Shown here: positions 11,203 through 45,357 of the stretch, one piece after another
How positions within the stretch are numbered: position 1 is the first letter of the stretch
How the letters are laid out: each line of letters opens with the position of its first letter
Origin: Candidatus Kaiserbacteria bacterium
GTDB lineage: Bacteria; Patescibacteriota; Minisyncoccia; Phycocordibacterales; UBA2100
Assembly (NCBI GenBank): GCA_016214605.1
Contig: JACROD010000023.1
Coordinates: 32,428-96,427 of the forward strand
Direction: 5' to 3'
DNA: 64,000 nucleotides
The notes under the pieces: generated by a model
Told to the model about the DNA's origin: nothing
Seen by the model: the letters and a program-made list of their open reading frames with translations, nothing else
Databases searched by the model: none
Program-made: the position numbers and the translations under genes

Positions 11203-11302
11203 AGTTAAAAAATTATACCTCGTCTAAAGTTTACATCAAAGATACGAGGAGTGTATAAGTGGATCGGATGTCTTAAGAATACCCCCTCCTAATAATAAAA
11301 CA

Positions 11303-16006: not shown

Positions 16007-16660
16007 TTATGCAGTACTCGACATAGAGAGCCCGAAAGAGTGGCAGAGAGTATCTACCGTGTCCCTAAAAACGGGGTCTGTGCGTCTGCGACCGCGGGCA
16101 TGCCCCACGATCCGCATTACGGAGATCCTTGAATAGACGCTAAAGATCACATAGAGGTCTTCAGCCTTCCCCTTCATGGCGTCCATAGTCAAGAGAGCAA
16201 TCGCTTGACGTCCCGTTGCGACCCGCCTGTTTTTTTCGGCTCGCGCAGGGCTTGCGATCTGATCAAGGTCCACACCCAATGTTTCCGAAACCTTTTGAGC
16301 GATTTCCCGAGGCGTGAGTTTTGGCTCATGCACAGGGGCGGACCGCTTCTCGAATGCCGCACATATCGCAATCGCGACAGCCGAGAGTTCGGGAGATATG
16401 TCGACGCTATGGATCGCCTGACGAATTTCGTTTTGGGAGCATTCCAGGATGTCCTGGATCTGCCCATCCAAGATCTCCGGAGTCCGATGTGCGGCTGCTA
16501 TAAGAAGTAGTCGAGCCTCGAGCTCCGCCTTGGATCGTTTGTTTTTCGGAAGCATGATCGCCTGCAAATCGACTCGCTTCTTATCGCAAATCAATTCCGC
16601 CAAGGCGTTTATCTTCGTTCCGACGCTTAAAAAAACCATATTCTCACCCTCCATGATCAA
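16007..16660 (-). CDS. Hypothetical protein whose C-terminus resembles DnaA domain IV (HTH)
   Basis: The C-terminal ...RVATGRQAIALLTMDAMKGKAEDLYVIFSVYSRISVMRIVGHARG...DPVFRDTVDTL parallels the DnaA_C pattern (ARQ.AMyL..e.t..S...IG..FggRDHTTV.HA..KI). The call is weak. Confidence 0.3.
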   Translation of the reverse strand: MIMEGENMVFLSVGTKINALAELICDKKRVDLQAIMLPKNKRSKAELEARLLLIAAAHRTPEILDGQIQDILECSQNEIRQAIHSVDISPELSAVAIAICAAFEKRSAPVHEPKLTPREIAQKVSETLGVDLDQIASPARAEKNRRVATGRQAIALLTMDAMKGKAEDLYVIFSVYSRISVMRIVGHARGRRRTDPVFRDTVDTLCHSFGLSMSSTA

Positions 16661-30935: not shown

Positions 30936-31829
30936 ATGAAAAATAAACTCACGTTCATCTTTGTGATCGCGATTATCATTGCTCTCTGGGCGGTTCTTTT
31001 CATACTCTCGCAGGGTGTTGATGTCTCCGTCTTGAATCCGAAAGGTTGGGTCGCGCTCCAGGAGAAAAATCTCATCATCACGGCAGTTCTCCTGATGTCT
31101 ATCGTGGTCGTGCCGGTGTACATCCTCACCTTCTTGATCGCTTGGAAATACCGCGCCAGCAACGCTTCCGCTGTATATGATCCCGACCATGACCATGATC
31201 TGCGCGTAGAGATCTTTTGGTGGGCCGTCCCGATCACGATCATTCTTATTCTCGGTACCATAACCTGGAAGACCACGCACGAGCTCGATCCTTTCAGACA
31301 TTTGGATTCCAATGCACGGCCGCTCACGGTCTATGTCGTCGCGCTCAATTGGAAATGGTTGTTCATTTATCCTGAGCAAGGGATCGCCACGGTGAATTTC
31401 GTCGAATTCCCCGAAAATAGGCCGATCGACTTTTGGATCACCGCCGATACGCCGATGAACTCCTTTTGGATACCGAGCTTGGGCAGCCAGATCTACGCGA
31501 TGGCTGGTATGACGACACAACTGCATCTGATCGCCGATCAAGTCGGCACATTCAACGGCCTTTCGGCGAATTTTAGCGGAGAGGGATTTTCGGGGATGAA
31601 ATTCGTCGCGCAATCAGTCTCGCAAAGCGATTTTGACCAATGGGTGCATTCGGTCCAGGAGCTTCCTACCATACTCGACGCGGACGAATACGTCCGATTG
31701 GCCGCACCTAGCTCAAACGTGCCCACGATGTATTTCGGTTCCGCCGATATGGGGCTGTATAATACAGTAGTCTTGAAATACATGACGCCCAACGTCTCGA
31801 TCCCCGCGATGGATCACGACGCGCATTAA
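30936..31829 (+). CDS. cyoA: Quinol oxidase subunit II (CyoA/QoxA-type; no CuA ligands)
   Basis: It has two N-terminal TM helices and a cupredoxin-like domain lacking the CuA Cys/His motif (..[18 protein letters not shown]..). It is immediately followed by subunits I, III and IV. Confidence 0.8.
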
Positions 31830-31837
31830 GATCAATT

Positions 31838-33814
31838 ATGTTCGGCAAACTCACACTCGATGCATTTCCGCAAAATCCGATCGTCATGTCGGCGTTAATC
31901 TTCATGATCGTGATCGGTGTCGCCATAGCGGGTGCCTTGTTCTATTTCAAGCGTTGGCGATGGTTCTGGGATGAATGGCTCACCTCGCTCGACGCCAAGC
32001 GTATCGGCGTGATGTATATCGCCGTCGGTTTCGTCATGCTGCTGCGCGGTGCCATAGACGCCGCGATGATGCGCGGGCAGCAGGCGATATCGGTCGGCGA
32101 TTCGTATGGTTATCTCACCCCCGACCACTTCGATCAGGTTTTCACCGCGCACGGCGTGATCATGATCTTCTTCGTCGCCATGCCGTTGATGTTTGGTCTC
32201 TTCAATCTCGTGGTGCCGCTTCAGATCGGCGCGCGCGATGTGGCATTTCCCTTCCTCAATTCAGTCAGCTTCTGGCTTTTTGCCGCCGGAGCGATACTCA
32301 TCAATATCTCGCTCGTCTACGGCGAATTCGCCAAGATCGGCTGGCTCGGCTACCCTCCGCTCTCTGAGCTCCAATACAGTCCCGGGGTCGGTGTCGATTA
32401 TTATATATGGCTGCTGCAGATCGCAGGCTTAGGCAGCCTCTTTGGCGCGATCAATTTTTTCGTGACGATCATCAAGATGCGCGCGCCAGGGATGACCTTG
32501 ATGCGCATGCCGATGTTTGAATGGACAACGCTCGCGAGTGTGGTGCTTATGATCGTTATATTCCCCATACTCACCGCGACCTTGGCGATGCTCTCCCTCG
32601 ATCGCTTGCTCGGGATGCATTTCTTTACTTCCGACTCCGGCGGCAACGCGATGATGTACGTCAATCTTATTTGGGCGTGGGGGCATCCGGAAGTATACGT
32701 GCTGATCTTGCCAGCCTTCGGCGCATTCTCGGAGATCGTACCGACCTTTGCGCGCAAGCCACTCTTTGGATATGCATCAATGGTCGCTGCATCAATCGTC
32801 ATTTGTTTTTTCTCGTTCATCGTATGGCTCCACCACTTCTTCACGATGGGTGCGGGAGCAAACGTAAACGCATTCTTTGGTATCGCGACGATGGTCATCG
32901 CCATCCCGACCGGTGTCAAAGTCTTCAACTGGCTCGCCACGATGTATCGCGGGCGCATCACTTTTACTTCGCCGATGTATTGGTTCCTCGGTTTTGTCGC
33001 AACCTTCACCCTCGGTGGCATGACCGGTGTGATGCTCGCAGTGCCGGGGATTGACTTCCAGGTCCACAACAGCCTCTTCTTGGTCGCGCACTTCCATAAT
33101 ATGGTGATCGGCGGTGTCGTGTTTGGTTATCTCGCGGCACTTTCTTTCTGGTTCCCCAAGATATTTGGTTTCCGGCTCAACGAAAAGTGGGGCATACGCG
33201 CCTTTTGGTGCTGGATCGTTGGATTCTTCGTGGCATTTATGCCGCTCTACGTACTCGGCTTCATGGGTGCGACGCGCCGCCTTGATCACTACGACGCTTC
33301 GACGGGTTGGCAGCCGCTTTTTATCGTGGCGGGCATCGGCGTCGCGATCATTGCGCTCGGTATCGTGTGTCAGGCGATACAGCTGATCGTGAGTATCAAG
33401 GAACGCAAACAAAATGCAGACACGACCGGCGATGCTTGGAATGATGGGCGCACGCTCGAATGGTCCACCTCCTCGCCGGCACCATTCTATAACTATGCCG
33501 TCATTCCGACCGTGCACGGACGCGATGCCTTTTGGGCGATGAAGCAGTCCGGCAACATTGGGCAAGCCAGGCTTGCCCAAGAGTACACAGACATTGAACT
33601 GCCGCGCAATACTCCTATGGGAGTGTATATCGGCGCATTCGCGCTCGTATTCGGATTCTCTCTCGTGTGGCACATCTGGTGGCTCGCCCTCATCGGAGCC
33701 CTGGGGATCGTCGCGTGCATTATCGCGCGCTCGTTTGATGAGCACACCGAATACATCCTCCCGGCCGCAGAGGTCGCTCGCATGGAAGCCGCTCGCGGCG
33801 CACAAACGATATGA
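31838..33814 (+). CDS. cyoB: Quinol oxidase subunit I (heme-copper oxidase catalytic subunit)
   Basis: 658 aa with ...[17 protein letters not shown]..., ...HHFFTMG... and [15 protein letters not shown], the classic HCO subunit I signatures. Confidence 0.9.
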
Positions 33815-34383
33815 CGCAGGACCTTTCTGAAAATAAGACAGTGTTCGGATTTTGGATCTATATCCTGAGCGATTGTTTTCTTTTTGCGACGCTTTTTGCC
33901 ACGTATGCGGTCTTGCACGGAAGCACATTTGGAGGGCCGGGAGCGGATACGCTCTTTAGTTTGCCGTTTGTCCTTGCCGAGACTCTCATCCTGCTCACCA
34001 GCAGCTTCACCGCAGGCCTCGCCATGCTTGCCGGGCATCAGGGCAAGCGCATACATGTGCTCGTATGGATTGGTATTACACTTCTCCTTGGACTCACCTT
34101 CGTTGGATTGGAGCTCAGGGAATTTGCCGCATTCATCGCTGAGGGCAATAGCTGGACCCGTAGCGGATTCTTGTCGGGATTCTTCACATTAGTGGGCACG
34201 CATGGCGCACACGTGGCCGCCGGATCGCTCTGGATGATCGTACTCATGGTCCAGATCACAAAGAAAGGCCTCACGGACACTCTGATGAACCGACTCATGC
34301 GCTGGAACCTTTTCTGGCATTTCCTGGATGTTGTGTGGATCTTTATCTTTACGTTCGTCTACCTTTTGGGCATAGCCCTCTAA
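33811..34383 (+). CDS. cyoC: Quinol oxidase subunit III
   Basis: 190 aa with five TM helices. Its position and length match CyoC. Confidence 0.8.
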
Positions 34384-34387
34384 CACT

Positions 34388-34786
34388 ATGGAAGACTCTA
34401 CGCATCACATGATCGATCATTCCCACTCATCTCGGCACGGTTCGCTCGTCTCATACATCATCGGCTTTGTGATCTCGATCGTCCTCACGCTTGCTGCATA
34501 TTTCATCGTGCAGCAGCATGTCTCTTCGCTCCACGAGACCTTCAGTCATTCATTTATCACCTTTGCCGTGGTCGGCTTCGCACTGCTGCAGCTTCTGGTC
34601 CAGCTCATTTTCTTTTTGCACCTGGGCCGCGACGCCAAACCCCATTGGAATCTTATCGTCTTTGTGTACGCATTTCTCCTGCTCCTTATCATCGTCGTAG
34701 GCTCTCTCTGGGTCATGCATCACCTCAACTACAACATGATGCTCATGCCGCCAGCGGAGGTCGATGCCTACATGCTTGATAAATAG
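34388..34786 (+). CDS. cyoD: Quinol oxidase subunit IV
   Basis: 132 aa with three TM helices immediately after subunit III. Confidence 0.7.
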   Translation: MEDSTHHMIDHSHSSRHGSLVSYIIGFVISIVLTLAAYFIVQQHVSSLHETFSHSFITFAVVGFALLQLLVQLIFFLHLGRDAKPHWNLIVFVYAFLLLLIIVVGSLWVMHHLNYNMMLMPPAEVDAYMLDK

Positions 34787-34817
34787 CTCACGGTGAGCAA
34801 GCCAGGCTTGCTCAAAT

Positions 34818-34850
34818 GGCAGGGAACGATGCCCTGCCATTTTTCATTTT
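34818..34850 (+). terminator. Rho-independent terminator after cyoD (ggcagggaacgatgccctgcc + atttttcatttttg)
   Basis: Hairpin followed by a T-run. The 19-bp palindrome at 34795-34813 precedes it. Confidence 0.6.
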
Positions 34851-34855
34851 TGTAA

Positions 34856-34878
34856 AAATATGTAACGTATGGTATGAT
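34856..34878 (+). promoter_or_regulatory. Sigma-70-like promoter TTGTAA-N17-TATGAT, 8 nt upstream of the hicB ATG (near-leaderless)
   Basis: The hexamers and spacing were read directly. No RBS lies between the -10 and the ATG at 34887. Confidence 0.4.
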
Positions 34879-34886
34879 GATTTATC

Positions 34887-35129
34887 ATGAAAAGGAAATC
34901 AAAAACAGTTACGACCTATACGGCAGTTGTTGAGAAGGACGAAAAGTCGGGCTATTGGGCGTATGTGCCCGCACTCCCTGGATGCTATACGCAGGGAGAG
35001 ACGCTTGATGCGATATACAAAAATCTGCAAGAAGCGACCGTGTTGTATCTAGCGGCACTGAAAGACGATAAAAAACCAGTGCCGCACTCGCATTTTTTGA
35101 GCACAGTGCAAGTGCAAGTTCCTGTTTGA
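34887..35129 (+). CDS. hicB: HicB-family antitoxin (UPF0150)
   Basis: YTAVVEKDEKSGYWAYVPALPGCYTQGETLDAIYKNLQEATVLYL is the HicB RNase-H-like fold signature. Confidence 0.65.
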   Translation: MKRKSKTVTTYTAVVEKDEKSGYWAYVPALPGCYTQGETLDAIYKNLQEATVLYLAALKDDKKPVPHSHFLSTVQVQVPV

Positions 35130-35138
35130 GATTTCGAT

Positions 35139-35354
35139 ATGGCGAAAATTCCTCGCGGCAGAGAGATGGTGCGAAAACTGTTGCGAATCGGTTTCGTATT
35201 GAATCGTCAGCATGGAAGCCATTGCGTAATGAAAAATGCAACGGGAGAGACTATTGTAGTGCCCGTGCATGCCGGCAGAGAATTAAAGATTGGCCTCTTT
35301 CGAAGTATTTTCTCGCAAATCGGCGTGTCCGAAGAAGAATTCTGGGAGATATGA
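35139..35354 (+). CDS. hicA: HicA-family toxin (mRNA interferase)
   Basis: MVRKLLRIGFVLNRQHGSHCVMKNATGETIVVPVHAGRELKIGLFRSIFSQIG is the HicA dsRBD-like motif, including the catalytic-region GSH. Confidence 0.65.
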   Translation: MAKIPRGREMVRKLLRIGFVLNRQHGSHCVMKNATGETIVVPVHAGRELKIGLFRSIFSQIGVSEEEFWEI

Positions 35355-36211
35355 TCAAGCGATACATCTCGCTCACCAAGCCCGGGATCATCATGGGCAA
35401 TGCGATCACGGCCTCGGGAGGATTTTTCCTCGCTTCGCGAGGGGCTTTTGATCCGGTGCTTTATCTCGCGATGCTCGCCGGGCTCTCACTCATCATCGCC
35501 TCTGGCTGTGTGATCAACAATTACTTCGATCGCGACATCGACGGCCTCATGGAACGCACCAAAAACCGCGCGCTCGTAAGTGGTGCAATGGTGCCCATTG
35601 CACCATGGAAGGCCATTTTTTTTGCGGCAGCACTCGGGGTCTTGGGGGTATGGATACTCTATCGATATACGAATCTCCTCACACTCGAGGTCGCGCTCTT
35701 TGGCGCTTTCGTATATATCGTGCTCTATACGCTCTGGTCTAAGCGCCGATCGACCAAAAGCACCTTCATAGGAAGCCTTTCGGGCGCGGTGCCACCGGTC
35801 ATCGGCTACTGTGCCGTGACCAATACGATCGATGCTGCGGCGATCCTCCTCTTTCTCATCCTTGTGCTCTGGCAAATGCCGCATTTCTTCGCGATCGCGC
35901 TGTATCGCATCGAGGATTACACGGCCGCCGCGATCCCGGTCTTGCCGGTCAAGAAAGGGATCTTGGCAACCAAGATCCAGATGATCCTCTATATCAACGC
36001 TTTTATCGTCGCGACACTCGCGTTGACCGCACTGGACTACACGGGATATTTCTACGCGCTTGTCATGGCGGTACTCGGAATCGTGTGGCTCGTCCTCGCG
36101 ATCATGGGATTCAAGGCGCCGGACACCAAAAAATGGGCACGGAGGATGTTTATCCTCTCACTGGTGGTCATTGTGACGTTTCCTGTCATGCTCGCAATTG
36201 ACGTACGGTAA
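35351..36211 (+). CDS. cyoE: Protoheme IX farnesyltransferase (heme O synthase)
   Basis: The ATG at 35351 overlaps the hicA stop (ATGA). The translation MIKRYISLTKPGIIMGNAITASGGFFLA...NNYFDRDIDGLMERTKNRAL... is the UbiA-family CyoE/CtaB. ORF-track frame 35126..36211 is an upstream over-extension. Confidence 0.85.
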   Translation: MIKRYISLTKPGIIMGNAITASGGFFLASRGAFDPVLYLAMLAGLSLIIASGCVINNYFDRDIDGLMERTKNRALVSGAMVPIAPWKAIFFAAALGVLGVWILYRYTNLLTLEVALFGAFVYIVLYTLWSKRRSTKSTFIGSLSGAVPPVIGYCAVTNTIDAAAILLFLILVLWQMPHFFAIALYRIEDYTAAAIPVLPVKKGILATKIQMILYINAFIVATLALTALDYTGYFYALVMAVLGIVWLVLAIMGFKAPDTKKWARRMFILSLVVIVTFPVMLAIDVR

Positions 36212-36212
36212 A

Positions 36213-39028
36213 TACTACAACAGTAGAAATTCCCTATAACGATTTGGCAACCGCTGTTGGAACGCCTTTATTACATCTACAACAGTAGAAATTCCCTATA
36301 ACGATTTGGCACGTCGGGCTTTTGGCATACGTTTAATCTACAACAGTAGAAATTCCCTATAACGATTTGGCGTACTTCGGGCACAGCCAACACCGGATCT
36401 ACAACAGTAGAAATTCCCTATAACGATTTGGCTTTTGTGACCTGATCGCTAGTAACTCATCTACAACAGTAGAAATTCCCTATAACGATTTGGCCCTACT
36501 CGCTCAACATCACACACGGCATCTACAACAGTAGAAATTCCCTATAACGATTTGGCGCAAAGCAATGGCATTGTGGACATTATCTACAACAGTAGAAATT
36601 CCCTATAACGATTTGGCCTGACATCAGGTTGGGTTTGGGGTTACATCTACAACAGTAGAAATTCCCTATAACGATTTGGCCGAATACATGGGTGGGGTGA
36701 ATCGAGAATCTACAACAGTAGAAATTCCCTATAACGATTTGGCGAATCCGACGTATACGATCGGCGTATTATCTACAACAGTAGAAATTCCCTATAACGA
36801 TTTGGCAAAACAATTTTGCCATGCAGAATAGATCTACAACAGTAGAAATTCCCTATAACGATTTGGCGGTGGAGGCAATGATTAGCGGGTTCTATCTACA
36901 ACAGTAGAAATTCCCTATAACGATTTGGCGTCATGCACAACCCACATCTCTTTGATCTACAACAGTAGAAATTCCCTATAACGATTTGGCGAATTATCAG
37001 TACGATGAGGTAGCAATCTACAACAGTAGAAATTCCCTATAACGATTTGGCGCGCTCGCCTTCGATAACAATTATATCTACAACAGTAGAAATTCCCTAT
37101 AACGATTTGGCCGTGAAACACCCCGAGCGTCGTGTATATCTACAACAGTAGAAATTCCCTATAACGATTTGGCGATAACGGGCGTATACTTGGAGTACCA
37201 TCTACAACAGTAGAAATTCCCTATAACGATTTGGCGAAAGAAGCCGCGAACAAAACAAAATATCTACAACAGTAGAAATTCCCTATAACGATTTGGCCCG
37301 CAGGGGTAATAAACACGTCTTTATCTACAACAGTAGAAATTCCCTATAACGATTTGGCGTCCGGAGCACCAGACCTTCTCTCCATCTACAACAGTAGAAA
37401 TTCCCTATAACGATTTGGCAGTGCCCGGAGCGGAGGTTTATGAGATCTACAACAGTAGAAATTCCCTATAACGATTTGGCACGTGTGCACGTTGCTACTA
37501 CTATCAAATCTACAACAGTAGAAATTCCCTATAACGATTTGGCATGGTGGCGGGGGTAAACTCGTTATAATCTACAACAGTAGAAATTCCCTATAACGAT
37601 TTGGCGGTTCTCGAAGTCGTTGAACCATATATCTACAACAGTAGAAATTCCCTATAACGATTTGGCGCCAACGACGCAACGAAAGCCGCCTAATCTACAA
37701 CAGTAGAAATTCCCTATAACGATTTGGCGTGATTTCAACATCACCCAGGAGGACATCTACAACAGTAGAAATTCCCTATAACGATTTGGCAAAAGCCGAA
37801 GAAACGGCGTTTCAAACATCTACAACAGTAGAAATTCCCTATAACGATTTGGCGAATCCAGCGAAGGAGTAATAAAAAAATCTACAACAGTAGAAATTCC
37901 CTATAACGATTTGGCGTGAGCGTGGTATGTGTGAGGGCCAAATCTACAACAGTAGAAATTCCCTATAACGATTTGGCAGTGAACGTGCGCACCTCCCAGT
38001 CCTATCTACAACAGTAGAAATTCCCTATAACGATTTGGCCCCGAATTGGTAGCAAAATATAATATATCTACAACAGTAGAAATTCCCTATAACGATTTGG
38101 CCAATCAATCTTGATCCGCAGATTATTTATCTACAACAGTAGAAATTCCCTATAACGATTTGGCATCACAGCTTAATATGCAACCTACAATCTACAACAG
38201 TAGAAATTCCCTATAACGATTTGGCAGGTGTACGCACGCGAGGAGGCACAAGATCTACAACAGTAGAAATTCCCTATAACGATTTGGCACGGGTCGTGAG
38301 GGACGAGGATACCTATCTACAACAGTAGAAATTCCCTATAACGATTTGGCACCGATATTCTATAACGATTAGTGAAATCTACAACAGTAGAAATTCCCTA
38401 TAACGATTTGGCCAACGAAAGCGCGACGAAGCAGCGCGATCTACAACAGTAGAAATTCCCTATAACGATTTGGCACCCCGAAATCGTCGCGCAATATCAG
38501 ATCTACAACAGTAGAAATTCCCTATAACGATTTGGCTCGATCTCGATATTGAGATGGTAGCATCTACAACAGTAGAAATTCCCTATAACGATTTGGCTTT
38601 TTGTGAATGCTGATTATTTTCAATCTACAACAGTAGAAATTCCCTATAACGATTTGGCTATTGCATTCTCATCAAGTGCCTCCAATCTACAACAGTAGAA
38701 ATTCCCTATAACGATTTGGCTTAAAGGCTCTGATATTCAGGGCATATCTACAACAGTAGAAATTCCCTATAACGATTTGGCAGGGTCAAGACCACGTATC
38801 TCTCTTTATCTACAACAGTAGAAATTCCCTATAACGATTTGGCTCGTGCTAAGAGGAAAAATAAAATATATCTACAACAGTAGAAATTCCCTATAACGAT
38901 TTGGCCGATCGTGTAGCGTGATCGGTTTTTGATCTACAACAGTAGAAATTCCCTATAACGATTTGGCCAGCGCTAAATAGACATCTATATGGATCTACAA
39001 CAGTAGAAATTCCCTATAACGATTTGGC
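36213..39028 (-). CRISPR. CRISPR array with 46 copies of a 36-nt repeat (minus-strand sense GCCAAATCGTTATAGGGAATTTCTACTGTTGTAGAT) and 45 spacers of ~25-27 nt. It is transcribed on the minus strand with the leader at the high-coordinate end
   Basis: Counted directly. Period is ~62 nt. The repeat's 3' 19 nt (AATTTCTACTGTTGTAGAT) forms the short UCUAC-UGUU-GUAGA hairpin typical of type V-A repeats. The leader-distal repeat at 36213 is degenerate (atactacaac) and starts 2 nt after the cyoE stop. Confidence 0.95.
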
Positions 39029-39223
39029 TGCGGGGATGGCTTGGTTGAGCCGCAGGATACAAATGAGGCACGAAGGCACTCACGACCTGGTTGGCTCAAC
39101 GAAGCCATTGTAAGGCCTCATCAAAAAATAAAGACTCCGGTTTTCACCGATCCCCGCAAGCGAAATCGAATCGTTACAATACAACTTCCACTCTTGTTGT
39201 TATGAAATTTTCAAAGGTCAGAG
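39029..39223 (-). promoter_or_regulatory. CRISPR leader (~195 bp) between cas2 and the first repeat, AT-rich with inverted repeats
   Basis: 16-nt inverted repeats atggcttggttgagcc (39036-39051) and ggctcaacgaagccat (39093-39108). A second pair atgaggc (39063-39069) and gcctcat (39115-39121) is interleaved with the first. An A/T-rich tract lies at 39120-39135. Confidence 0.5.
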
Positions 39224-39505
39224 TTAGTCGAAAACAACCACTTCTTTATCGTCGTTTTCTGCATAGCCGTACCGAACAATTTTCTTGCGGCACTGCTCGC
39301 AAAGAGGCACGATCATGACGCTATCCGCGCCCGTGAACTGCTTCTTATAATGCAATTCTATCTCCTTTTTAATGTTGCGCAAGATGCGATCACTATTACG
39401 TATCTCGTACACCGAGAATTGCAATTTGCGCCCAAACTTGCACAAAAACTTGGAAAATTTAGTCCGTACCTTATCGTTGGAGATGTCGTAAGATGTAACG
39501 AGCAT
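39224..39505 (-). CDS. cas2: CRISPR-associated endoribonuclease Cas2
   Basis: MLVTSYDISNDKVRTKFSKFLCKFGRKLQFSVYEI... is the Cas2 N-terminal beta-strand with Asp and the (R)LQxSV core. Its position next to cas1 and the array supports the call. Confidence 0.85.
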   Translation of the reverse strand: MLVTSYDISNDKVRTKFSKFLCKFGRKLQFSVYEIRNSDRILRNIKKEIELHYKKQFTGADSVMIVPLCEQCRKKIVRYGYAENDDKEVVVFD

Positions 39506-39510
39506 AATGT

Positions 39511-40467
39511 CTATATGTTAAATACGGGAAATTCCACTTCACCTTCGTTCATGACGTACCTATAATACCCATGTACGTATTTATACAAATCCTCCTTATG
39601 ACACATAATTGTTTCCATAAAGATCTCGGCATATTTACGACTCGCCTCGTATGAGAGTGTGTATCGTCCCTTCACCACTGTAAAATCCTTCGGGTCTATC
39701 TGCTTTAGATTCCACGCTTTGAGGAGTTGCTTGTCGATGATGCAGCGGAATGGCTCCATAATGTCACAGGCAAGCGACTTGCGCTGGAAGAAAAGCTTGT
39801 GATAAAAACCCTTATAGGTATCGAATCCATGTAGGCGGAGCAATGAATCGGTGCAATTGAATAGCATCGAATATCCGATGTCTAGCATAATATTGTGTAT
39901 GTCCCCCTTGGTGCGTGGGGCTCGTCGCACCCAACCTGTTTCGCCGTAATATTCTTCAAAAAACCTCCGCGAAGCATTACCCTCAAGTCCACGCAGAGTC
40001 TCATCACTACCCGCGCCCTGTATGGCGAGCAGTGTAGTATCCAGATCAGCTACCATACCATCTTTTTTCTTTCGTTCTTTGAGAAGTTTTGCTTGATTGG
40101 AAACTTTGTTTGCCATGAGCAATCGTGCCATGCTCATTTCCACATCCTCATTCCACGCATACTGGCGACTACGCAAGAGATAGTGCCCCTCTGCCACCGC
40201 ACCAAAGCTGGCATATGTCTCCAGATTGTCCTTGAGAAAGAAGAATGACACGCCGTGTTTGACCCCGTCACGCATGAGGCCGCTCGTGATGGTAATGTCC
40301 CCTATCACAAACGCGCCAAAGACCTTGTGACACGATGCCCTATTGATCACCTTGTCGTCCTTCATAAAGACCAAATTGTCATTAAAGAATTTGATCTTGT
40401 TGAAAACGCCACGCTCGGCCCGTATGAAGAGAAGTTGTTTTTCTTTGAAGTCAGGTAGTGAAATCAT
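39511..40467 (-). CDS. cas1: CRISPR-associated integrase Cas1
   Basis: 318 aa with ...GFDTYKGFYHKLFFQRKSLACDIMEPFRCIIDKQL... This corresponds to the Cas1 GxH...R.SL..DLMEPFRP.VD catalytic region. Confidence 0.9.
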   Translation of the reverse strand: MISLPDFKEKQLLFIRAERGVFNKIKFFNDNLVFMKDDKVINRASCHKVFGAFVIGDITITSGLMRDGVKHGVSFFFLKDNLETYASFGAVAEGHYLLRSRQYAWNEDVEMSMARLLMANKVSNQAKLLKERKKKDGMVADLDTTLLAIQGAGSDETLRGLEGNASRRFFEEYYGETGWVRRAPRTKGDIHNIMLDIGYSMLFNCTDSLLRLHGFDTYKGFYHKLFFQRKSLACDIMEPFRCIIDKQLLKAWNLKQIDPKDFTVVKGRYTLSYEASRKYAEIFMETIMCHKEDLYKYVHGYYRYVMNEGEVEFPVFNI

Positions 40468-40474
40468 ATGCGTA

Positions 40475-41014
40475 TTACCATGCTAGTGCTCCATAAATGC
40501 TTTCTTCGCAGCGTATACAGGAGTGTCCGTGGACGGCAGACATGTCGAAAGCGCGCATGTCTGCGAGCACTTGCTCAAAACGTGTTTTTTCAGCTTCGCC
40601 AGGGATGGGTATTTCATAGCGCTTGTTATCTTCGAGTGAGTGGAGAAATAGCTTGTCTATCTCGTATCCCATTTCGATCATGCAGTAGTATTGGGCGTAG
40701 AGCTGGTATCGGTAGCCGTCTCGGATCTCCTTGATGCGCGTTTTGCGTTCGATGAGGTGCTTTTTGTCGGCGTCGTATAGGTCAATCCGACCTGCCACCG
40801 CAAGCCTTTCGGAGTAGACTTCCATTCCCCCGATAAACCGACGTGCAGTGGAGTAGGTGTCGTCGTCGAGATGTGCATGGTTGGCCCGGCCGACGATCTG
40901 GGGCGTTTGATGGTAGGTCTTGGTGTTGAATCCTTCATAGAGATTATGGAGATAGATGGAGACCGGACAATACAAAAAGTCGTTGATATTGGAGATTTTG
41001 ATGTACGGTTCCAT
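40475..41014 (-). CDS. cas4: CRISPR-associated Cas4 (PD-(D/E)xK exonuclease with Fe-S cysteines)
   Basis: N-terminal FLYCPVSIYLHNLY, a core D...E.K (RIDLYDADKKHLIERKTR), and a C-terminal ...HGHSCIRCEESIY cysteine cluster. Confidence 0.8.
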   Translation of the reverse strand: MEPYIKISNINDFLYCPVSIYLHNLYEGFNTKTYHQTPQIVGRANHAHLDDDTYSTARRFIGGMEVYSERLAVAGRIDLYDADKKHLIERKTRIKEIRDGYRYQLYAQYYCMIEMGYEIDKLFLHSLEDNKRYEIPIPGEAEKTRFEQVLADMRAFDMSAVHGHSCIRCEESIYGALAW

Positions 41015-41203: not shown

Positions 41204-44200
41204 TCATAGTTGTATTCCGTGTTTAGTTGCCCATTCGTCCCACTGTTCTTTACTGATGTATAAATCCGGTTTTTCTGGATTATCATTTATACGGCCAATG
41301 GTGATAATACCCTTTCGAGCAATGTTGTAGGCGCCGAGAGAGTCGCCATTCGCCAGATTGATGTCACATGGATTTGGCTTTGGCGCATTGAGGGTTGTGA
41401 AGAATGGAGCAACGGGTGATGCAATGAAGTCGGTCTTATCAGACGAATTTCGGATATCGAGAATGATATTGAAGATATAGATGAATGCCTGGAAGAAGTT
41501 CCTTTCTCGCCCGTCAATCATCTTATAGCTGCTGAGTTCTCCATTTTTCATCTTTTCCTCGATCTTACTTTTTAGGTCGGTCGCTATTTTGTCCTCAAAA
41601 TTCCACGCCTCAAACAGAGACTTGAACATATCGTTCGGATTTACATTCCGAGCATTCCAAACACCTTGTTCGTTTCTCTCGCGACGAATACGTGGCACAT
41701 CTGCATATACCGTCCATAATTTCGATATCGTTTTAGTTTTCTCCTTCTTATCTACAAGTCTAACTGGATCGTAAGTGATAAAGTAGCTTTGCCTTTCTTC
41801 GTTCCAACCAATAGCATCGAAAGATTTAATTGCTTTTTCTAACTTCTCTTTGGTAGCTGAGTTACTGACATACACATTCTTACGGAATCCGGTGACAGGA
41901 TCTGTCGTCGACGTGTATGCTGCTTCAGTGTAGAAGACGATACCGGTCTGATTACCCATGTCTTTGAACGACTCAAACGGCGCGGCGAGTTGATAACCGT
42001 TTAGGACACCGCCTATTTCAAGCTCCGGCCTGTCTTTGAACACCATGTGACCGAGCTTGTCTACGAGTTGCTTTTCGAGCTGTTGGTATACACTCTTTTC
42101 AATACCACTACGAATTTGTTTGAAACGCATGTTGAGATTTTCGAGCACGATAATCGCGTTGTGTTCTATGGCGAGGTCGCAAATCTTTTTGACAGCATGC
42201 GATACATATCCACGCTTGAGGTCTTTGATCTGGCGCACCGGTAACCATGCTTGGCGATTGGCAGTACGTTCTTTCTCCTTGCCATCAAGAAGCTTGTGAT
42301 AGTCGGTGCCGCTAATCTCATTTAGACTCCCTTCGTCGACAATCACACCTTTTTGATTGATCACTGAATAGTATGCGAGATGCTTTTCCCCGCGATCAAT
42401 GCCGATGATGCAAAAGTCTTTTGCGCGCTTCGCGATAAGCTCGGCATTGAGTATCTTATTGAATTGATATTGGCTACGCATTGCATCCGTCCCCGCGTTG
42501 ATCTTGATTGGCACATGGAAGAATACCTTGTCTTCGGTAAAACGTTTGTATTTGGTGATGTCTCGCGGGAAGTTGCGTTTTTCTTTTTCCGGCTCCACCG
42601 ATGCCTCGCGGTAAAAAATCTCCGCATTTCCGGCGAGTTGTACCACAGTCGGTGTCTGTGCGAGATTTGCTTCGGAAAAGAGTTGTGAGAAGTAGAGTGA
42701 ATGCACATTTTTAGTACCCGTTGATCCGCTCGCAAAGTCTTTGCTTTTAATTTTGAACAAATACATCTCTCCTTTTGCAACATGCTCATCAATGTAGTCC
42801 GCATCTACTGGAACAAACTTTATCTTGTAATTTTGCTGTGCAATGTGGTCATTAAATTCACCGATACCCACATATTCCTCTGGTTTCTTCCATGTGAGTC
42901 CAAACGTCTCTTGGTAACCACCTTTGGCGAGACAGTTTTGATAGTACGCAATTAGTCTGGCAGTTTTATTCGCATCAAACTGATTTTTCCACGCACTCTG
43001 ATCTTCCTTTTTTGACTCTTGGAACTTGGCATACTCATCTTTAATCGCCTGCACTTCTGGTGTCCATCCAAACGTTTTTTTGTTGGTTTCCGCGAAAGCC
43101 ACCTTGGGAATCATGCGCTTTGGATCTGGAAACAGTTTGTATTCCATTTTTGAATATCCATTATCACCTGCTCGATACGCTTCGGGGTGTTTCTTCTCCT
43201 CCAGTATGTCACTAAACTGTTTACGCATTATCGCAAGATAATAAGCGCCGTCTTTTCGCAGAATAATGCCCAGCTTCTCTTGCTCTTTGTTTTTGTCCCA
43301 CCCGGAAAGAAGGGTGCCACATTCGAAGTTGAGTTTGACTTTGTTTTCATCGGATGGTTTTTGAGTGAGAAAATTGCGCGCTACATTGTAGAGCGGAAAG
43401 AAAATGTCTTTCGCATATTCTTCGCGATAGGCATCGTAGAATTTTGGGTCGTAACCCTCTTCTGGCTCAACCCAATCTCTCCTGTTTTCCGTCGCAAAGT
43501 ATTTGATCATACGATGCGCATCGCGACAGCTATTAAGGTACGCGCTGATACGATTGATCTGAATTGTCCCCTCATCTTCTTTTTCCTTACGCCTCTGCGA
43601 AAGTGCGCCCGTTGTCCAAAAGGAATCTTTTTTGAGGTCCGCCAAATCAACTGCACTTTCGGCAACACGCGCATCAAGTTCACTCAAGAGTATTGTAATG
43701 AGGTTTGTAAAGTGCCCGACACTCTCGACAAATGCTGCATGTTTCAATATCTCTGACCTGAACAACTCACTCGGTTTCTTCCCTTTATTTATTTCGTTCA
43801 CATCGAGAGCATTCTGTACGTGTTGAAGGGACACAAAATCAGGTAACTCCCCACCTCCACCCTTCGCCGTGCCAACCGCATCGAGAAGTGCGCCCTTGAG
43901 TACACTCCAGTTTGTGAAGTACTTACTCGAAATCGTATTGATCGCACCACTGGAGAAATATATTTTTGACCACTCATACCCACTTTTTTCTGGCATAGTA
44001 AGTGCGTCACGAATGAGCGCCAACATCTTCGTGCAGTAGGCGACATTTTCTTCAGAAAATACCTTTAGTTTCTCCCAGAGTTGGGCATCACCTTTTATCA
44101 CGAGCATCTCAAACACGTCTTTTTCACTCAAAATTTGATTGTGTAATTTTGCCAAAAAACTGATTTTGTTTCCAGTTTTCTGACGGTATTCGTTTACTTT

Positions 44201-45079
44201 TTTATTCACACTTTGCTCAAGCTCGGTACTGCCTCCAAGAACAGTATTGTAAACATCGATTCCGGCTTGCAAAAAACAACGATGATAGGCCTCAACATCG
44301 GTCAGCGCAAGAATCTCGGAATCAGTGAGTCCGATAGCGGTTTTTACTTTCTTATACTCGGATTCAACGATGTGTTTATTGCGCAAAAACTTTTCGAGAT
44401 TTTCGACTACACGTGTAGCCACCGCCGTGCTCGTACCGTCACTCTTGTAGAAATTCTCTCGCGTCTCGTTAAACTTTCCAAAATATGTGAAGAATCCAAA
44501 GAATGTCGAAAACACTTGTGTATCTTCAGCAAACTTATCCATTAGGATATTCAACACCGCTTCGTCAGTGAGAATTTTACAGCCTGTAGATGAGAACTTG
44601 ATTTTCTTTTGCTTGCCTGTGCGCCCAACGGATTCTATTTCTTCATATTGTGCCTTCCACTCATCGCCCATCTCATCAAAGAGACCTGCGACCTCGTACA
44701 AAAGAGCTTTTCTTTCTTTCTCATATGCGCTCTTCTGTTCTTTCGTTTGTGTCTTTTTGGCAACACCGATAAGGGCGTTATATGCACGTACAAAACTTGC
44801 AAGTTTTAACGCACTGACTTTTGATTCTGTAAAAGACGCTTGCACAAACAAACGATGTAATTGGTCCAATCGCACCTTGGTCTTTTGATAGTTTTCCTCG
44901 ACTTTTTTATCTTCTTCAAAAACAGCTTTTAAGGATTCGGAAGTTTTGCCTTGCGGCACCAACTCAAACCGCAATGTCTTCGACAATGCGTATTTGTGAG
45001 TAAAGCTGTCAAACACGGACTTTTGTCCTTCGGGATTCTTTCCACCGGACACAGGCGATCTCTGGGTCATGGTATTCAT
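41204..45079 (-). CDS. cas12a: Type V-A CRISPR effector Cas12a (Cpf1), 1291 aa. It is a single RuvC-like nuclease with no HNH domain
   Basis: The N-terminus FDSFTHKYALSKTLRFELVPQGKTSESLKA (the WED strand conserved in the Cas12a family). RuvC-I CIIGIDRGEKHLAYYSVI. RuvC-II AIIVLENLNMRFKQIRSGIEKSVYQQLEKQLVDKL. Then GIVFYTEAAYTSTTDPVTGF. RuvC-III INLANGDSLGAYNIARKG near the C-terminus. The family Lys-rich helical REC region is present. It lies immediately upstream of cas4-cas1-cas2 and the array. Confidence 0.9.
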   Translation of the reverse strand: MNTMTQRSPVSGGKNPEGQKSVFDSFTHKYALSKTLRFELVPQGKTSESLKAVFEEDKKVEENYQKTKVRLDQLHRLFVQASFTESKVSALKLASFVRAYNALIGVAKKTQTKEQKSAYEKERKALLYEVAGLFDEMGDEWKAQYEEIESVGRTGKQKKIKFSSTGCKILTDEAVLNILMDKFAEDTQVFSTFFGFFTYFGKFNETRENFYKSDGTSTAVATRVVENLEKFLRNKHIVESEYKKVKTAIGLTDSEILALTDVEAYHRCFLQAGIDVYNTVLGGSTELEQSVNKKVNEYRQKTGNKISFLAKLHNQILSEKDVFEMLVIKGDAQLWEKLKVFSEENVAYCTKMLALIRDALTMPEKSGYEWSKIYFSSGAINTISSKYFTNWSVLKGALLDAVGTAKGGGGELPDFVSLQHVQNALDVNEINKGKKPSELFRSEILKHAAFVESVGHFTNLITILLSELDARVAESAVDLADLKKDSFWTTGALSQRRKEKEDEGTIQINRISAYLNSCRDAHRMIKYFATENRRDWVEPEEGYDPKFYDAYREEYAKDIFFPLYNVARNFLTQKPSDENKVKLNFECGTLLSGWDKNKEQEKLGIILRKDGAYYLAIMRKQFSDILEEKKHPEAYRAGDNGYSKMEYKLFPDPKRMIPKVAFAETNKKTFGWTPEVQAIKDEYAKFQESKKEDQSAWKNQFDANKTARLIAYYQNCLAKGGYQETFGLTWKKPEEYVGIGEFNDHIAQQNYKIKFVPVDADYIDEHVAKGEMYLFKIKSKDFASGSTGTKNVHSLYFSQLFSEANLAQTPTVVQLAGNAEIFYREASVEPEKEKRNFPRDITKYKRFTEDKVFFHVPIKINAGTDAMRSQYQFNKILNAELIAKRAKDFCIIGIDRGEKHLAYYSVINQKGVIVDEGSLNEISGTDYHKLLDGKEKERTANRQAWLPVRQIKDLKRGYVSHAVKKICDLAIEHNAIIVLENLNMRFKQIRSGIEKSVYQQLEKQLVDKLGHMVFKDRPELEIGGVLNGYQLAAPFESFKDMGNQTGIVFYTEAAYTSTTDPVTGFRKNVYVSNSATKEKLEKAIKSFDAIGWNEERQSYFITYDPVRLVDKKEKTKTISKLWTVYADVPRIRRERNEQGVWNARNVNPNDMFKSLFEAWNFEDKIATDLKSKIEEKMKNGELSSYKMIDGRERNFFQAFIYIFNIILDIRNSSDKTDFIASPVAPFFTTLNAPKPNPCDINLANGDSLGAYNIARKGIITIGRINDNPEKPDLYISKEQWDEWATKHGIQL

Positions 45080-45357
45080 TTAAACTATTGGGCTTTGTAT
45101 AAAACCTCCGCCACTCCAAGCCACCGAGGGACGACGGTGATCGCCCGATAGAATGCGTGCCAAACGGCTATGCGAATACCGGAACCGTCGCCCCTCGATG
45201 ATTTCGAGAGGGGCATATATCTACAGGCGATCATGGTAACTATAGACTTTGATCATCAGCCATGCAAACATGCCGCCCTTACGGCAGTTATCAACATTGT
45301 ATGTGTACGGACTTGGTTTATACTTATGCAAAATCATTAATATAAAGATACACGCAT

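What the first reader, a model, noticed from the sequence alone, without database searches (positions are those of the whole stretch)
36213..39223. Array architecture: orientation, degenerate terminal repeat fused to the cyoE stop, and a leader with long inverted repeats
The array is transcribed on the minus strand, so each spacer follows its handle. The leader-distal repeat (36213-36248) is mutated (ATACTACAAC) and begins 2 nt after the cyoE TAA. This suggests the whole CRISPR-cas island was inserted precisely downstream of cyoE, or that cyoE's terminator lies inside the array.

The leader carries 16-nt inverted repeats (39036-39051 and 39093-39108) interleaved with a second pair. These are candidate binding or bending sites for integration, or an attenuator for pre-crRNA.

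Spacer lengths of 25-27 nt are at the short end for type V-A.
Basis: seen in the sequence. Interest (0 to 1): 0.6.

Follow-up and report, generated by a model that had tools for sequence, protein, structure and literature searches.

The report
Cas12a CRISPR array with structured leader
This is an ordinary, apparently active type V-A (Cas12a) CRISPR array read on the minus strand. The inverted repeats in its leader are not chance: they belong to a conserved, base-paired leader module, with an inverted copy of the repeat, that recurs in dozens of related Cas12a loci and that I could not find described.

Summary
There are 46 repeats at 36213-39028: 45 identical 36-nt copies and one terminal copy that differs only in its two outermost bases. 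The 45 unique spacers are 24-27 nt. On the minus strand the repeat ends in the Cas12a handle AAUUUCUACUGUUGUAGAU, and cas12a-cas4-cas1-cas2 lie upstream on that strand.

The terminal repeat starts one base after the cyoE stop codon. About half of the related complete arrays carry the same kind of 3'-end-only mutation. That fits the published idea that V-A terminal repeats decay to prevent an extraneous crRNA. Spacer lengths are typical for this clade (mode 26).

The island has low GC (0.39-0.45 against about 0.52), and its relatives sit in different neighbourhoods, so horizontal acquisition is likely. No close genome was available for an empty-site test, and no cyoE terminator is predicted in the array.

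The new part is the leader. The 16-nt inverted repeat is helix P1 of a roughly 125-nt module: P1, a nested hairpin P2, and fixed motifs including TTGYAT at -35. The module shows strong covariation. A covariance model finds it once per locus in 55 V-A loci and never in 1.3 Mb of control DNA. Further upstream lies an inverted, degenerate copy of each locus's own repeat. I favour an RNA fold; its function is unproven.

The parts
35351..36211 (+). cyoE (heme o synthase), convergent with the array; stop codon TAA at 36209-36211
   Evidence: Pfam UbiA. NCBIfam NF003348, 376.7 bits against a cut-off of 285. Homologues align to residue 284-286 of 286, so the C-terminus is intact.
36213..36248 (-). Terminal (leader-distal) repeat; the last two crRNA-sense bases are changed (GTAGAT to GTAGTA)
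   Evidence: The same 3'-end-only pattern occurs in about 14 of 27 related complete arrays.
36213..39028 (-). Type V-A CRISPR array: 46 repeats of 36 nt and 45 unique spacers of 24-27 nt
39029..39223 (-). Leader (from the cas2 stop codon to repeat 1)
   Evidence: RNA fold z = -4.6. Leader plus R1-S1-R2 gives z = -7.0.
39019..39152 (-). Match to covariance model R1, the conserved leader module
   Evidence: 79.3 bits, E = 1e-9, and the only hit in the 64-kb window.
39093..39108 (-). P1 5' arm (AUGGCUUCGUUGAGCC)
39036..39051 (-). P1 3' arm (GGCUCAACCAAGCCAU); it contains the junction-proximal motif AGCCA
39064..39082 (-). P2 hairpin (UGAGUGCC-UUCG-UGCCUCA)
   Evidence: Structure. Covariation of the 7 P2 pairs.
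39081..39087 (-). Conserved motif GGUCGUG (family consensus AAAGUCGU), about 60 nt before repeat 1
39057..39062 (-). TTGTAT, the invariant TTGYAT motif, at -34 (34-37 nt before repeat 1 in nearly all relatives)
39128..39143 (-). Upstream motif AAACCGGAGTCTTTAT (family pattern AAACCNNNRTCYTWAT)
   Evidence: Exact match in the window. Found once per locus on the array-sense strand in 42 V-A loci.
39150..39158 (-). 5' strand (UGCGGGGAU) of the outer helix; it pairs with 39029-39037, which abuts repeat 1
39160..39203 (-). Inverted, degenerate copy of the repeat ('anti-repeat'). The + strand GCGAAATCGAATCGTTACAATACAACTTCCACTCTTGTTGTTATG resembles the crRNA-sense repeat.
   Evidence: In the window the evidence is an 11-nt helix TTGTAACGATT/AATCGTTATAG (p = 0.03) plus GCGAAATCG against GCCAAATCG.
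39224..39505 (-). cas2
   Evidence: PF09827; TIGR01573.
39511..40467 (-). cas1 (type V)
   Evidence: TIGR04329, 324.5 bits against a cut-off of 300.
40475..41014 (-). cas4 (type V)
   Evidence: TIGR04328, 186 bits against a cut-off of 70. There is no Pfam hit.
41204..45079 (-). cas12a
   Evidence: Five Cas12a Pfam domains. TIGR04330, 753 bits against a cut-off of 300. 100% identical to an NCBI 'Candidatus Kaiserbacteria' Cas12a.

Best explanation
The region is a canonical type V-A CRISPR-Cas locus. The genes cas12a-cas4-cas1-cas2, the leader and the array are all on the minus strand. The locus was probably acquired horizontally and now ends one base from the convergent cyoE stop codon.

The terminal repeat has lost the last two bases of its handle. 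This is a recurrent V-A feature that is thought to stop the last repeat from yielding a useless 'extraneous' crRNA.

The leader inverted repeats are the two strands of helix P1 of a conserved leader module. Reading 5' to 3' on the array strand, the module consists of:
- an inverted degenerate copy of the repeat, covering repeat positions about 1-30;
- the motif AAACCnnnGTCTTTAT;
- the P1 5' arm;
- AAAGUCGU;
- hairpin P2;
- AUUUGYAUCUUU, with TTGYAT fixed about 35 nt before repeat 1;
- the P1 3' arm;
- AGCCAwwwnnGCT;
- repeat 1.

I infer, but have not shown, that P1 and P2 fold in the leader part of the pre-crRNA. This would form a compact 5' domain that ends at the first repeat and is cut off when Cas12a processes repeat 1. 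Where the inverted repeat copy is also transcribed, it can pair with the 5' two-thirds of a repeat.

The most likely roles are to insulate or present the first (newest) repeat-spacer unit, to stabilise the transcript's 5' end, or to act as a protein-binding platform. The 13 nt next to the junction (AGCCA...GCT) most likely act on DNA as the integrase's leader-anchoring sequence.
For: Identity and orientation.

Terminal repeat.

Inverted repeats are not chance: 38 of 44 non-redundant leaders have an inverted repeat ending 0-14 nt before repeat 1, each with p <= 0.01 against 100 dinucleotide shuffles (35 exceed every shuffle). The arm sequences are unrelated between loci.

Covariation on a plain MAFFT alignment:
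- 75.2% of cells are paired, against 54.2% in shuffles (0 of 500 shuffles reach the observed value).
- 201 cells show changes on both sides, against 74 in shuffles.
- Slid-partner controls give 31-47% paired.
- All 22 pairs show compensatory changes.
- RNAalifold independently predicts P1.

Specificity: model R1 gives exactly one hit per locus in 55 loci (54 fetched V-A loci plus this window), always on the array-sense strand. That includes L120, whose array is inverted relative to cas12a. It gives no hit at E <= 1 in 1.3 Mb of control loci.

Strand asymmetry:
- G:U 65 against A:C 35 in P1/P2 on the model-fitted alignment.
- 54 against 37 on the MAFFT alignment.
- 58 against 25 in the anti-repeat helix, detected with Watson-Crick-only scoring.

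Inverted copy tracks the locus's own repeat: own score 15.7 against 12.4 for other loci's repeats, and own repeat in the top 10% in 23 of 43 loci. In 30 of 39 loci the complementarity is significant, with ungapped helices of up to 25-32 nt.

Thermodynamics: z = -4.6 and -7.0.
Against: - There is no transcript evidence and the transcription start is unknown. No convincing sigma-70 promoter could be placed upstream of the module.
- TTGYAT and the junction motifs sit at fixed, gap-free distances from the integration site. That is what a DNA-level signal read by the integrase or RNA polymerase would look like.
- If the inverted repeat copy is transcribed, pairing with repeat 1 would mask the 5' strand and loop of the first handle. 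That seems counter-productive for the newest spacer.
- Many of the G:U cells are shared by descent, so the asymmetry p-values are inflated. One of the alignments was fitted to the structure.
- In F. novicida, V-A integration in vitro needs only about 3 nt of leader (PMC13034035). This shows that a long leader is not universally required. The Butyrivibrio Cas12a locus has no such module.
Confidence: 0.55

Rival explanations
1. DNA-level adaptation signal. The leader motifs, the inverted repeat arms and the inverted repeat copy are docking or folding sites on double-stranded (or transiently unpaired) DNA. They would direct Cas1-Cas2(-Cas4) to the first repeat. This would be analogous to the IHF sites and inverted-repeat motifs of I-E/I-F leaders, or to a cruciform next to the integration site.
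For: - The alignment is gap-free from -38 to -1, with TTGYAT at -35 +/- 1 and AGCCA at -13..-9 whether or not these bases lie in P1.
- The upstream motif sits in clusters near -96, -104 and -115, steps of about one helical turn.
- The inverted copy co-varies with the repeat, which the integrase recognises.
- I-F leaders use two inverted-repeat motifs bound by the Cas2 dimer.
- All 54 fetched loci with a model hit (the window is the 55th hit, and its own cas1 is confirmed) carry cas1. The one locus examined that lacks cas4/1/2 also lacks the module.
Against: - The arm sequences differ almost completely between loci while complementarity is kept. A small nested hairpin (P2) covaries too. This is unexpected for protein-read duplex sites.
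- Loops of 28-60 nt disfavour cruciform extrusion (general knowledge).
- A G:T excess over A:C points to one strand, not both.
- Integration by the F. novicida V-A system in vitro needs only about 3 nt of leader.
Confidence: 0.3
2. Promoter plus operator. TTGYAT would be the -35 box of the array promoter, with transcription starting at about repeat 1. The inverted repeat arms flanking it would be operators for a regulator.
For: TTGYAT occupies exactly -35..-30 relative to the first repeat base in 36 of 38 leaders, and G, A and T are invariant. Individual arms are often partly palindromic, of the form GGCTT-N4-AAGCC.
Against: - There is no TAnnnT at -12..-7. The consensus there is AGCCAww, and the best -10-like hexamer would need a 19-nt spacer.
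- The arms relate to each other as inverted complements, including their non-palindromic centres, and they are not conserved in sequence.
- The promoter scan finds nothing on the minus strand in the leader.
Confidence: 0.1
3. Chance palindromes, or a small mobile palindromic element (a MITE- or REP-like insertion) in this one leader.
For: None beyond the presence of inverted repeats.
Against: The inverted repeat beats all shuffles. The module is present at the same place in 55 loci and nowhere else in the window or the controls.
Confidence: 0.01

Closest known systems
Type V-A (Cas12a/Cpf1) CRISPR-Cas loci, e.g. Francisella novicida U112 and the Parcubacteria/Peregrinibacteria loci of Zetsche et al. 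2015 (from memory)
   Same: The gene order cas12a-cas4-cas1-cas2-leader-array. A 36-nt repeat ending in AAUUUCUAC-NNNN-GUAGAU. Spacers in the mid-20s. No separate tracrRNA gene detected.
   Different: This clade has a long (about 190-nt) leader with a conserved base-paired module and an inverted repeat copy. The F. novicida work reports that only about 3 leader nt matter in vitro. The Butyrivibrio locus has a leader of about 25 nt and no module.
Terminal-repeat decay that prevents extraneous crRNA in V-A arrays (Liao et al. 2019, as cited in PMC13187072)
   Same: The last repeat carries changes confined to the handle. The same pattern recurs in about half of the related complete arrays.
   Different: Here only two bases differ, and the repeat directly abuts a convergent gene's stop codon. 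Loss of Cas12a processing was not tested.
Leader-repeat hairpins of II-A (Cas9) and VI-B (Cas13b) systems (PMC13187072)
   Same: A transcribed leader is proposed to fold with or next to the first repeat and so shape crRNA production. Here the distal leader is complementary to the first repeat in 30 of 39 loci.
   Different: [quoted passage not shown] V-A has the repeat-guide configuration, so the first repeat is needed for the newest spacer. The main helices here (P1, P2) lie within the leader, not between leader and repeat.
Inverted-repeat and IHF motifs of type I-F/I-E leaders (bioRxiv 10.1101/2023.05.26.542337)
   Same: Conserved leader motifs at fixed distances from the integration site, including inverted repeats.
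   Different: In I-F leaders the inverted-repeat motifs are bound by Cas2 mainly through shape readout, and no base pairing between distant arms is proposed. Here the arms vary freely but stay complementary. IHF sites were not examined.
tracrRNA anti-repeats (types II, V-B) and standalone repeat-like units in V-A loci (Shmakov et al. 2023, PMC10120712)
   Same: A repeat-derived sequence outside the array that is complementary to, or resembles, the repeat.
   Different: Those V-A units are reported mostly upstream of cas12a and with no defined role. The copy here lies in the leader, in cis and inverted, and always lacks the GTAGAT end. Cas12a is known to process its own crRNA without tracrRNA (general knowledge).

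Membership tests
Type V-A CRISPR-Cas | Cas12a effector with a RuvC/Nuc architecture | tested here: met
   Pfam RuvC_1, REC1, NUC, PI and REC2. TIGR04330, 753 bits against a cut-off of 300.
Type V-A CRISPR-Cas | Adaptation module cas4-cas1-cas2 of the type V (PREFRAN) kind | tested here: met
   TIGR04328, TIGR04329 and TIGR01573 are all above their cut-offs.
Type V-A CRISPR-Cas | A repeat whose 3' end forms the handle stem-loop UCUAC-N4-GUAGA, directly 5' of the spacer | tested here: met
   45 exact copies of AATTTCTACTGTTGTAGAT on the minus strand. The same motif is present in 48 related arrays.
Type V-A CRISPR-Cas | T-rich 5' PAM on protospacers | tested here: inconclusive
   There is no phage BLAST hit. 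The single 20/26 viral match has a GTAT flank and is probably chance.
Type V-A CRISPR-Cas | Transcription of the array from the leader side and processing by Cas12a | not testable with these tools
   No RNA data. Orientation is inferred.
Terminal-repeat decay against extraneous crRNA | Mutations confined to the handle of the last repeat | tested here: met
   In the window, AT becomes TA at the last two positions. About 14 of 27 relatives are mutated only in the last 1-10 nt.
Terminal-repeat decay against extraneous crRNA | The mutated repeat is no longer bound or processed by Cas12a | not testable with these tools
   This needs a biochemical assay.
Leader-repeat hairpin (II-A / VI-B type) | Leader RNA pairs with the first repeat | tested here: inconclusive
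   Complementarity is significant in 30 of 39 loci, and an 18-bp closing helix is predicted in the window. Whether that part of the leader is transcribed is unknown.
Leader-repeat hairpin (II-A / VI-B type) | The first repeat is the source of an extraneous crRNA (guide-repeat configuration) | tested here: not met
   The handle precedes the spacer. In this configuration the extraneous crRNA arises at the last repeat.
I-E/I-F-type leader integration signals | Conserved motifs at fixed distance from the leader-repeat junction | tested here: met
   TTGYAT at -35, AGCCA at -13..-9 and GCT at -3..-1.
I-E/I-F-type leader integration signals | Motifs bound by IHF or Cas2 and required for integration | not testable with these tools
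   This needs binding and integration assays.
Any Rfam RNA family | A covariance-model match | tested here: not met
   No hit at the gathering threshold in the window. No hit at E <= 10 in 38850-39350.

The most novel reading that the evidence does not exclude
Many type V-A systems carry a previously undescribed leader RNA. It would be a structured domain (P1/P2 with conserved unpaired motifs) preceded by a cis-encoded anti-repeat that can pair with repeat positions 1-30. This RNA would actively gate use of the first repeat or processing of the pre-crRNA, or would tether adaptation or effector proteins to the leader end of the array. That would be a tracrRNA-like layer in a subtype thought to need none.
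Probability: 0.25. Interest if true: 0.75.

Novelty: new variant of a known kind. Interest (0 to 1): 0.55.

Why it matters
How type V-A arrays pick the leader-proximal repeat for new spacers is poorly understood, and so is how the newest crRNA is produced efficiently. A leader module that covaries like a structured RNA, sits at a fixed distance from the integration site, and is paired with an inverted copy of the locus's own repeat gives a concrete, testable element for both questions. It also provides a search model for finding and orienting V-A arrays in metagenomes. Cas12a is a major genome-editing enzyme, so a natural cis element that tunes first-repeat processing could inform the design of multiplex arrays. 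The rest of the finding (orientation, terminal repeat, spacer length) is ordinary.

Tried and rejected
- Exact-protein look-ups of cyoE, Cas2 and the NCBI Cas12a found no contigs. The P0004 locus had no DNA.
- Empty-site test. The genome scan with cyoE returned only relatives of 50-60% identity, mostly Chlamydiota. None has DUF1993 downstream of cyoE, so no empty site can be defined.
- cyoE terminator in the array. No terminator-like site was found on the + strand near the junction.
- Standalone repeats or flanking direct repeats of the island. None were found.
- A helix 'P0' around the AAACCnnnGTCTTTAT motif. Only 4 of 30 loci were significant, so I rejected it.
- CTTTGACAA as a -35 box. No -10 element lies at a fixed spacing.
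- A pseudoknot between ATGCAAA (-120) and TTTGCAT (-37). By eye it is seen only in a subgroup and is absent from the window. I dropped it.
- The window's second, interleaved pair (39063-69 / 39115-21). I found no counterpart in L085 or L157 by eye and treated it as lineage-specific or chance. It was not tested systematically.
- Rfam: no family matched.
- Spacer targets. There is no self-target within 5 mismatches in the window and no hit in 50,697 phage records. Three 20-mers were scanned against IMG/VR and gave one probably spurious hit.
- Papers I tried to read that are not held in the library: Santiago-Frangos 2021, Nunez 2015, Liao 2019 and Liao 2022. What I say about them is from memory or from papers that cite them.
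Full report
**What is there**

Between 36213 and 39028 the window holds 46 copies of a 36-nt repeat. Of these, 45 are identical. The copy at 36213-36248 differs only in its two outermost bases. The 45 spacers are all different and are 24-27 nt long: 1 of 24, 15 of 25, 22 of 26 and 7 of 27.

Read on the minus strand the repeat is GCCAAATCGTTATAGGGAATTTCTACTGTTGTAGAT. Its 3' end is the Cas12a handle: stem UCUAC/GUAGA with a 4-nt loop. The same TTCTAC-N4-GTAGAT ending is found in 48 other arrays that lie next to Cas12a genes.

Upstream on the same strand are four cas genes:
- cas2, 39224-39505;
- cas1, 39511-40467 (TIGR04329);
- cas4, 40475-41014 (TIGR04328);
- cas12a, 41204-45079 (TIGR04330, 753 bits).

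The Cas12a protein is 100% identical to an NCBI protein from 'Candidatus Kaiserbacteria bacterium'. This is a complete type V-A locus. Gene order, the handle, the leader position and the mutated far-end repeat all indicate minus-strand transcription. No RNA evidence is available.

**Terminal repeat and the cyoE junction**

cyoE is a heme o synthase (NF003348, 376.7 bits). It ends with TAA at 36209-36211. One base later the terminal repeat begins. Homologues align to the last residues of the protein, so its C-terminus is intact.

The terminal repeat reads GTAGTA where the others read GTAGAT. I compared the ends of related arrays that are complete on their contigs. About 14 of 27 have a last repeat that is unchanged over the first 26-35 nt and mutated only in the last 1-10 nt. 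L125 has the identical AT-to-TA change. This matches the published view that in repeat-guide systems such as V-A the oldest repeat accumulates handle mutations that prevent an extraneous crRNA (PMC13187072, citing Liao et al. 2019). It says nothing about how the island arrived.

No terminator-like site exists on the + strand after cyoE until 38903, and that one is a palindromic spacer. The idea that the cyoE terminator lies in the array therefore has no support. cyoE and the array are simply convergent and tightly packed.

**Was the island inserted?**

GC content is 0.39-0.45 across 36-45 kb, against about 0.50-0.55 on both sides. Close Cas12a relatives sit in unrelated neighbourhoods:
- L001 (78% identity) lies between a pyridine-nucleotide oxidoreductase and DsbA-like genes.
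- The P0004 locus (75%) lies after ftsW.
- L002 (64%) lies after an asparagine-synthase-like gene.

No standalone repeat or flanking direct repeat marks the borders. Horizontal acquisition as a unit is therefore likely. The decisive empty-site comparison could not be made. The best cyoE match among 185,579 species representatives is 57-60% identical and is mostly from Chlamydiota. None of those loci has the window's downstream genes.

**Spacers**

Lengths of 25-28 nt, with a mode of 26, are the rule in 40 related arrays. The window is typical for its clade, though slightly shorter than the 27-29 nt reported for F. novicida.

No spacer matches the rest of the window within 5 mismatches or any of 50,697 phage records. 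Of three leader-proximal 20-mers scanned against IMG/VR, one hit a viral contig. Only 20 of 26 bases match, the distal bases do not, and the flank is GTAT rather than TTTV. I regard this hit as chance.

**The leader**

The 16-nt inverted repeat at 39036-39051 / 39093-39108 is real: 15 of 16 bases pair. It is far beyond chance, scoring 13 against a shuffle maximum of 7.

The more important result came from relatives. I collected 84 further Cas12a loci and extracted 44 non-redundant leaders. In 38 of them an inverted repeat of 11-21 nt, with a loop of 28-60 nt, ends 0-14 nt before repeat 1 with p <= 0.01 against 100 shuffles (35 beat every shuffle). The arm sequences are essentially unrelated between loci.

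Anchored on repeat 1, the leaders align without gaps from -38 to -1. The features are:
- ATTTGYATCTTT, with TTGYAT at -35 +/- 1 in 36 of 38 leaders;
- the 3' arm;
- AGCCA at -13..-9;
- GCT at the junction.

About 60 nt upstream lies AAAGTCGT. Between it and TTGYAT is a small hairpin, P2. Further upstream, the motif AAACCNNNRTCYTWAT occurs once per locus, always on the array-sense strand, in 42 V-A loci.

**Covariation**

I used a plain MAFFT alignment of 39 leaders and wrote the structure by hand: P1 with 15 pairs and P2 with 7 pairs. The counts are:
- 75.2% of cells paired, against 54.2% in column shuffles (0 of 500 shuffles reach the observed value);
- 31-47% paired when the partners are slid by 1-3 columns;
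- 201 cells with changes on both sides, against 74 in shuffles;
- all 22 pairs with compensatory changes.

RNAalifold independently predicted the core of P1.

I built a covariance model from this alignment (R1). It finds exactly one match per locus in 55 loci (54 fetched V-A loci plus this window). Thirteen of these (14 counting L084, whose matched stretch duplicates L099) were not in the seed alignment. Every match lies between cas2 and the array on the array strand. In L120 the array is inverted relative to cas12a, and the module follows the array. The model finds nothing at E <= 1 in 1.3 Mb of unrelated control loci. Its only match in the window is 39019-39152 on the minus strand.

Among loci with a full leader, about 87% contain the module. 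The Butyrivibrio proteoclasticus Cas12a locus lacks cas4/1/2. It has a leader of about 25 nt and no module.

**An inverted copy of the repeat**

The distal leader, about -120 to -190, contains a sequence of the form AAAAGTAGAAATT...TTAGAC. This is the reverse complement of the locus's own repeat from about position 30 back to position 1.

- The best antisense match falls on the same part of the repeat in about 31 of 43 leaders.
- The match to the variable 5' half of the locus's own repeat is better than to other loci's repeats: 15.7 against 12.4, with the own repeat in the top 10% in 23 of 43 loci.
- Ungapped complementarity reaches 25-32 nt in many loci and is significant in 30 of 39.
- It never extends into the final GTAGAT.

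In the window the copy is more decayed (39160-39203). Together with 39150-39158 / 39029-39037 it still gives a predicted 18-bp helix that includes the first 9 nt of repeat 1.

**RNA or DNA?**

Three observations point to a folded single strand rather than duplex sites read by proteins. There are two nested helices. Their sequences drift freely while pairing is kept. One of them is a small hairpin.

Wobble pairs favour the array-sense strand:
- G:U 65 against A:C 35 in P1/P2 on the model-fitted alignment;
- 54 against 37 on the MAFFT alignment;
- 58 against 25 in the anti-repeat helix, found with Watson-Crick-only scoring.

These counts are inflated by shared ancestry and are suggestive only.

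Against a purely RNA role, the motif distances to the integration site are rigid. AGCCA...GCT is conserved whether or not it lies in P1. I could not place a promoter upstream:
- CTTTGACAA after cas2 has no -10 element at a fixed spacing.
- TTGYAT has no TAnnnT at -12..-7.

My best reading is a composite leader. A short junction-proximal DNA signal serves the integrase. That is comparable to the leader-anchoring site discussed for II-A and the about 3 nt found for F. novicida V-A. A structured RNA domain is transcribed ahead of the first repeat. I put about 0.55 on the RNA fold, 0.3 on a mainly DNA-level adaptation signal and 0.1 on a promoter-operator arrangement.

**Comparison with the literature**

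- Terminal-repeat decay in V-A is known.
[quoted passage not shown] V-A does not have that problem.
- I-F leaders have inverted-repeat motifs bound by Cas2 together with IHF.
- Repeat-like units have been reported in about half of V-A loci, mostly upstream of cas12a and with no assigned role.

Full-text searches found no description of a covarying leader module or a leader-borne inverted repeat copy in V-A. Rfam has no matching family. The key survey of leader motifs (Santiago-Frangos et al. 2021) is not in the library, so prior description cannot be excluded.

**Verdict**

The array architecture is ordinary and largely explained. The leader is a conserved, structured element that appears to be undescribed and is directly testable.

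Noticed in passing
window 34887-35354: A hicB/hicA toxin-antitoxin pair (Pfam) sits between cyoD and cyoE. In most of 80 related cyo operons cyoD is followed directly by cyoE, so the pair looks like an insertion into the operon.
   Followed up: partly
window 30936-36211: A complete cyoABCDE quinol-oxidase operon lies on a contig whose Cas12a is labelled Candidatus Kaiserbacteria. The closest cyo genes are 50-68% identical and come from Chlamydiota, Verrucomicrobiota and a few Saccharibacteria/Patescibacteria MAGs. This suggests horizontal transfer of the operon.
   Followed up: partly
window 38351-38376 (spacer 11): The spacer contains AATCGTTATAG, which is 11 nt identical to positions 5-15 of the repeat. 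This may be chance or an aberrant acquisition.
   Followed up: no
window 38903-38931 (spacer 2; the terminator-like site reaches into the adjacent repeat): The spacer is a near-palindrome and scores as a + strand terminator. Its first 20 nt match IMGVR_UViG_3300020045_002337 (L164 1994-2013), but there is no TTTV flank and the distal bases mismatch.
   Followed up: yes
L001 15808-15833 vs 16117-16142, and 16549-16574 vs 16610-16635: The array of the 78% identity relative carries pairs of near-identical spacers that differ by 1-3 bases. This would fit repeated acquisition from variants of one target.
   Followed up: no
L120 784-906 (minus strand): Here the array and the leader module lie on the strand opposite to cas12a. 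The module follows the array, not the cas genes.
   Followed up: partly
window 39205-39217 and about 25 related leaders: The motif CTTTGACAAYT (CCTTTGAAAAT in the window) lies a few bases after the cas2 stop codon. It resembles a -35 box but has no -10 element at a fixed spacing.
   Followed up: partly
window 35958-35978 (minus strand): A terminator-like hairpin (9 pairs, followed by CTTTCTTG) lies inside cyoE, about 235 nt past the array end. It is a possible stop for pre-crRNA read-through.
   Followed up: no
L165 (Butyrivibrio proteoclasticus pCY360) 10752-11370: This Cas12a locus has no cas4/1/2. Its array starts about 25 nt after cas12a, with no leader module, and several repeats are degenerate.
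   Followed up: partly
window 45080-45357: The divergent intergenic region between cas12a and a DUF1993 gene contains TTGCATAAGTATAAACC. This resembles the leader motifs TTGCAT and GTATAAA.
   Followed up: no
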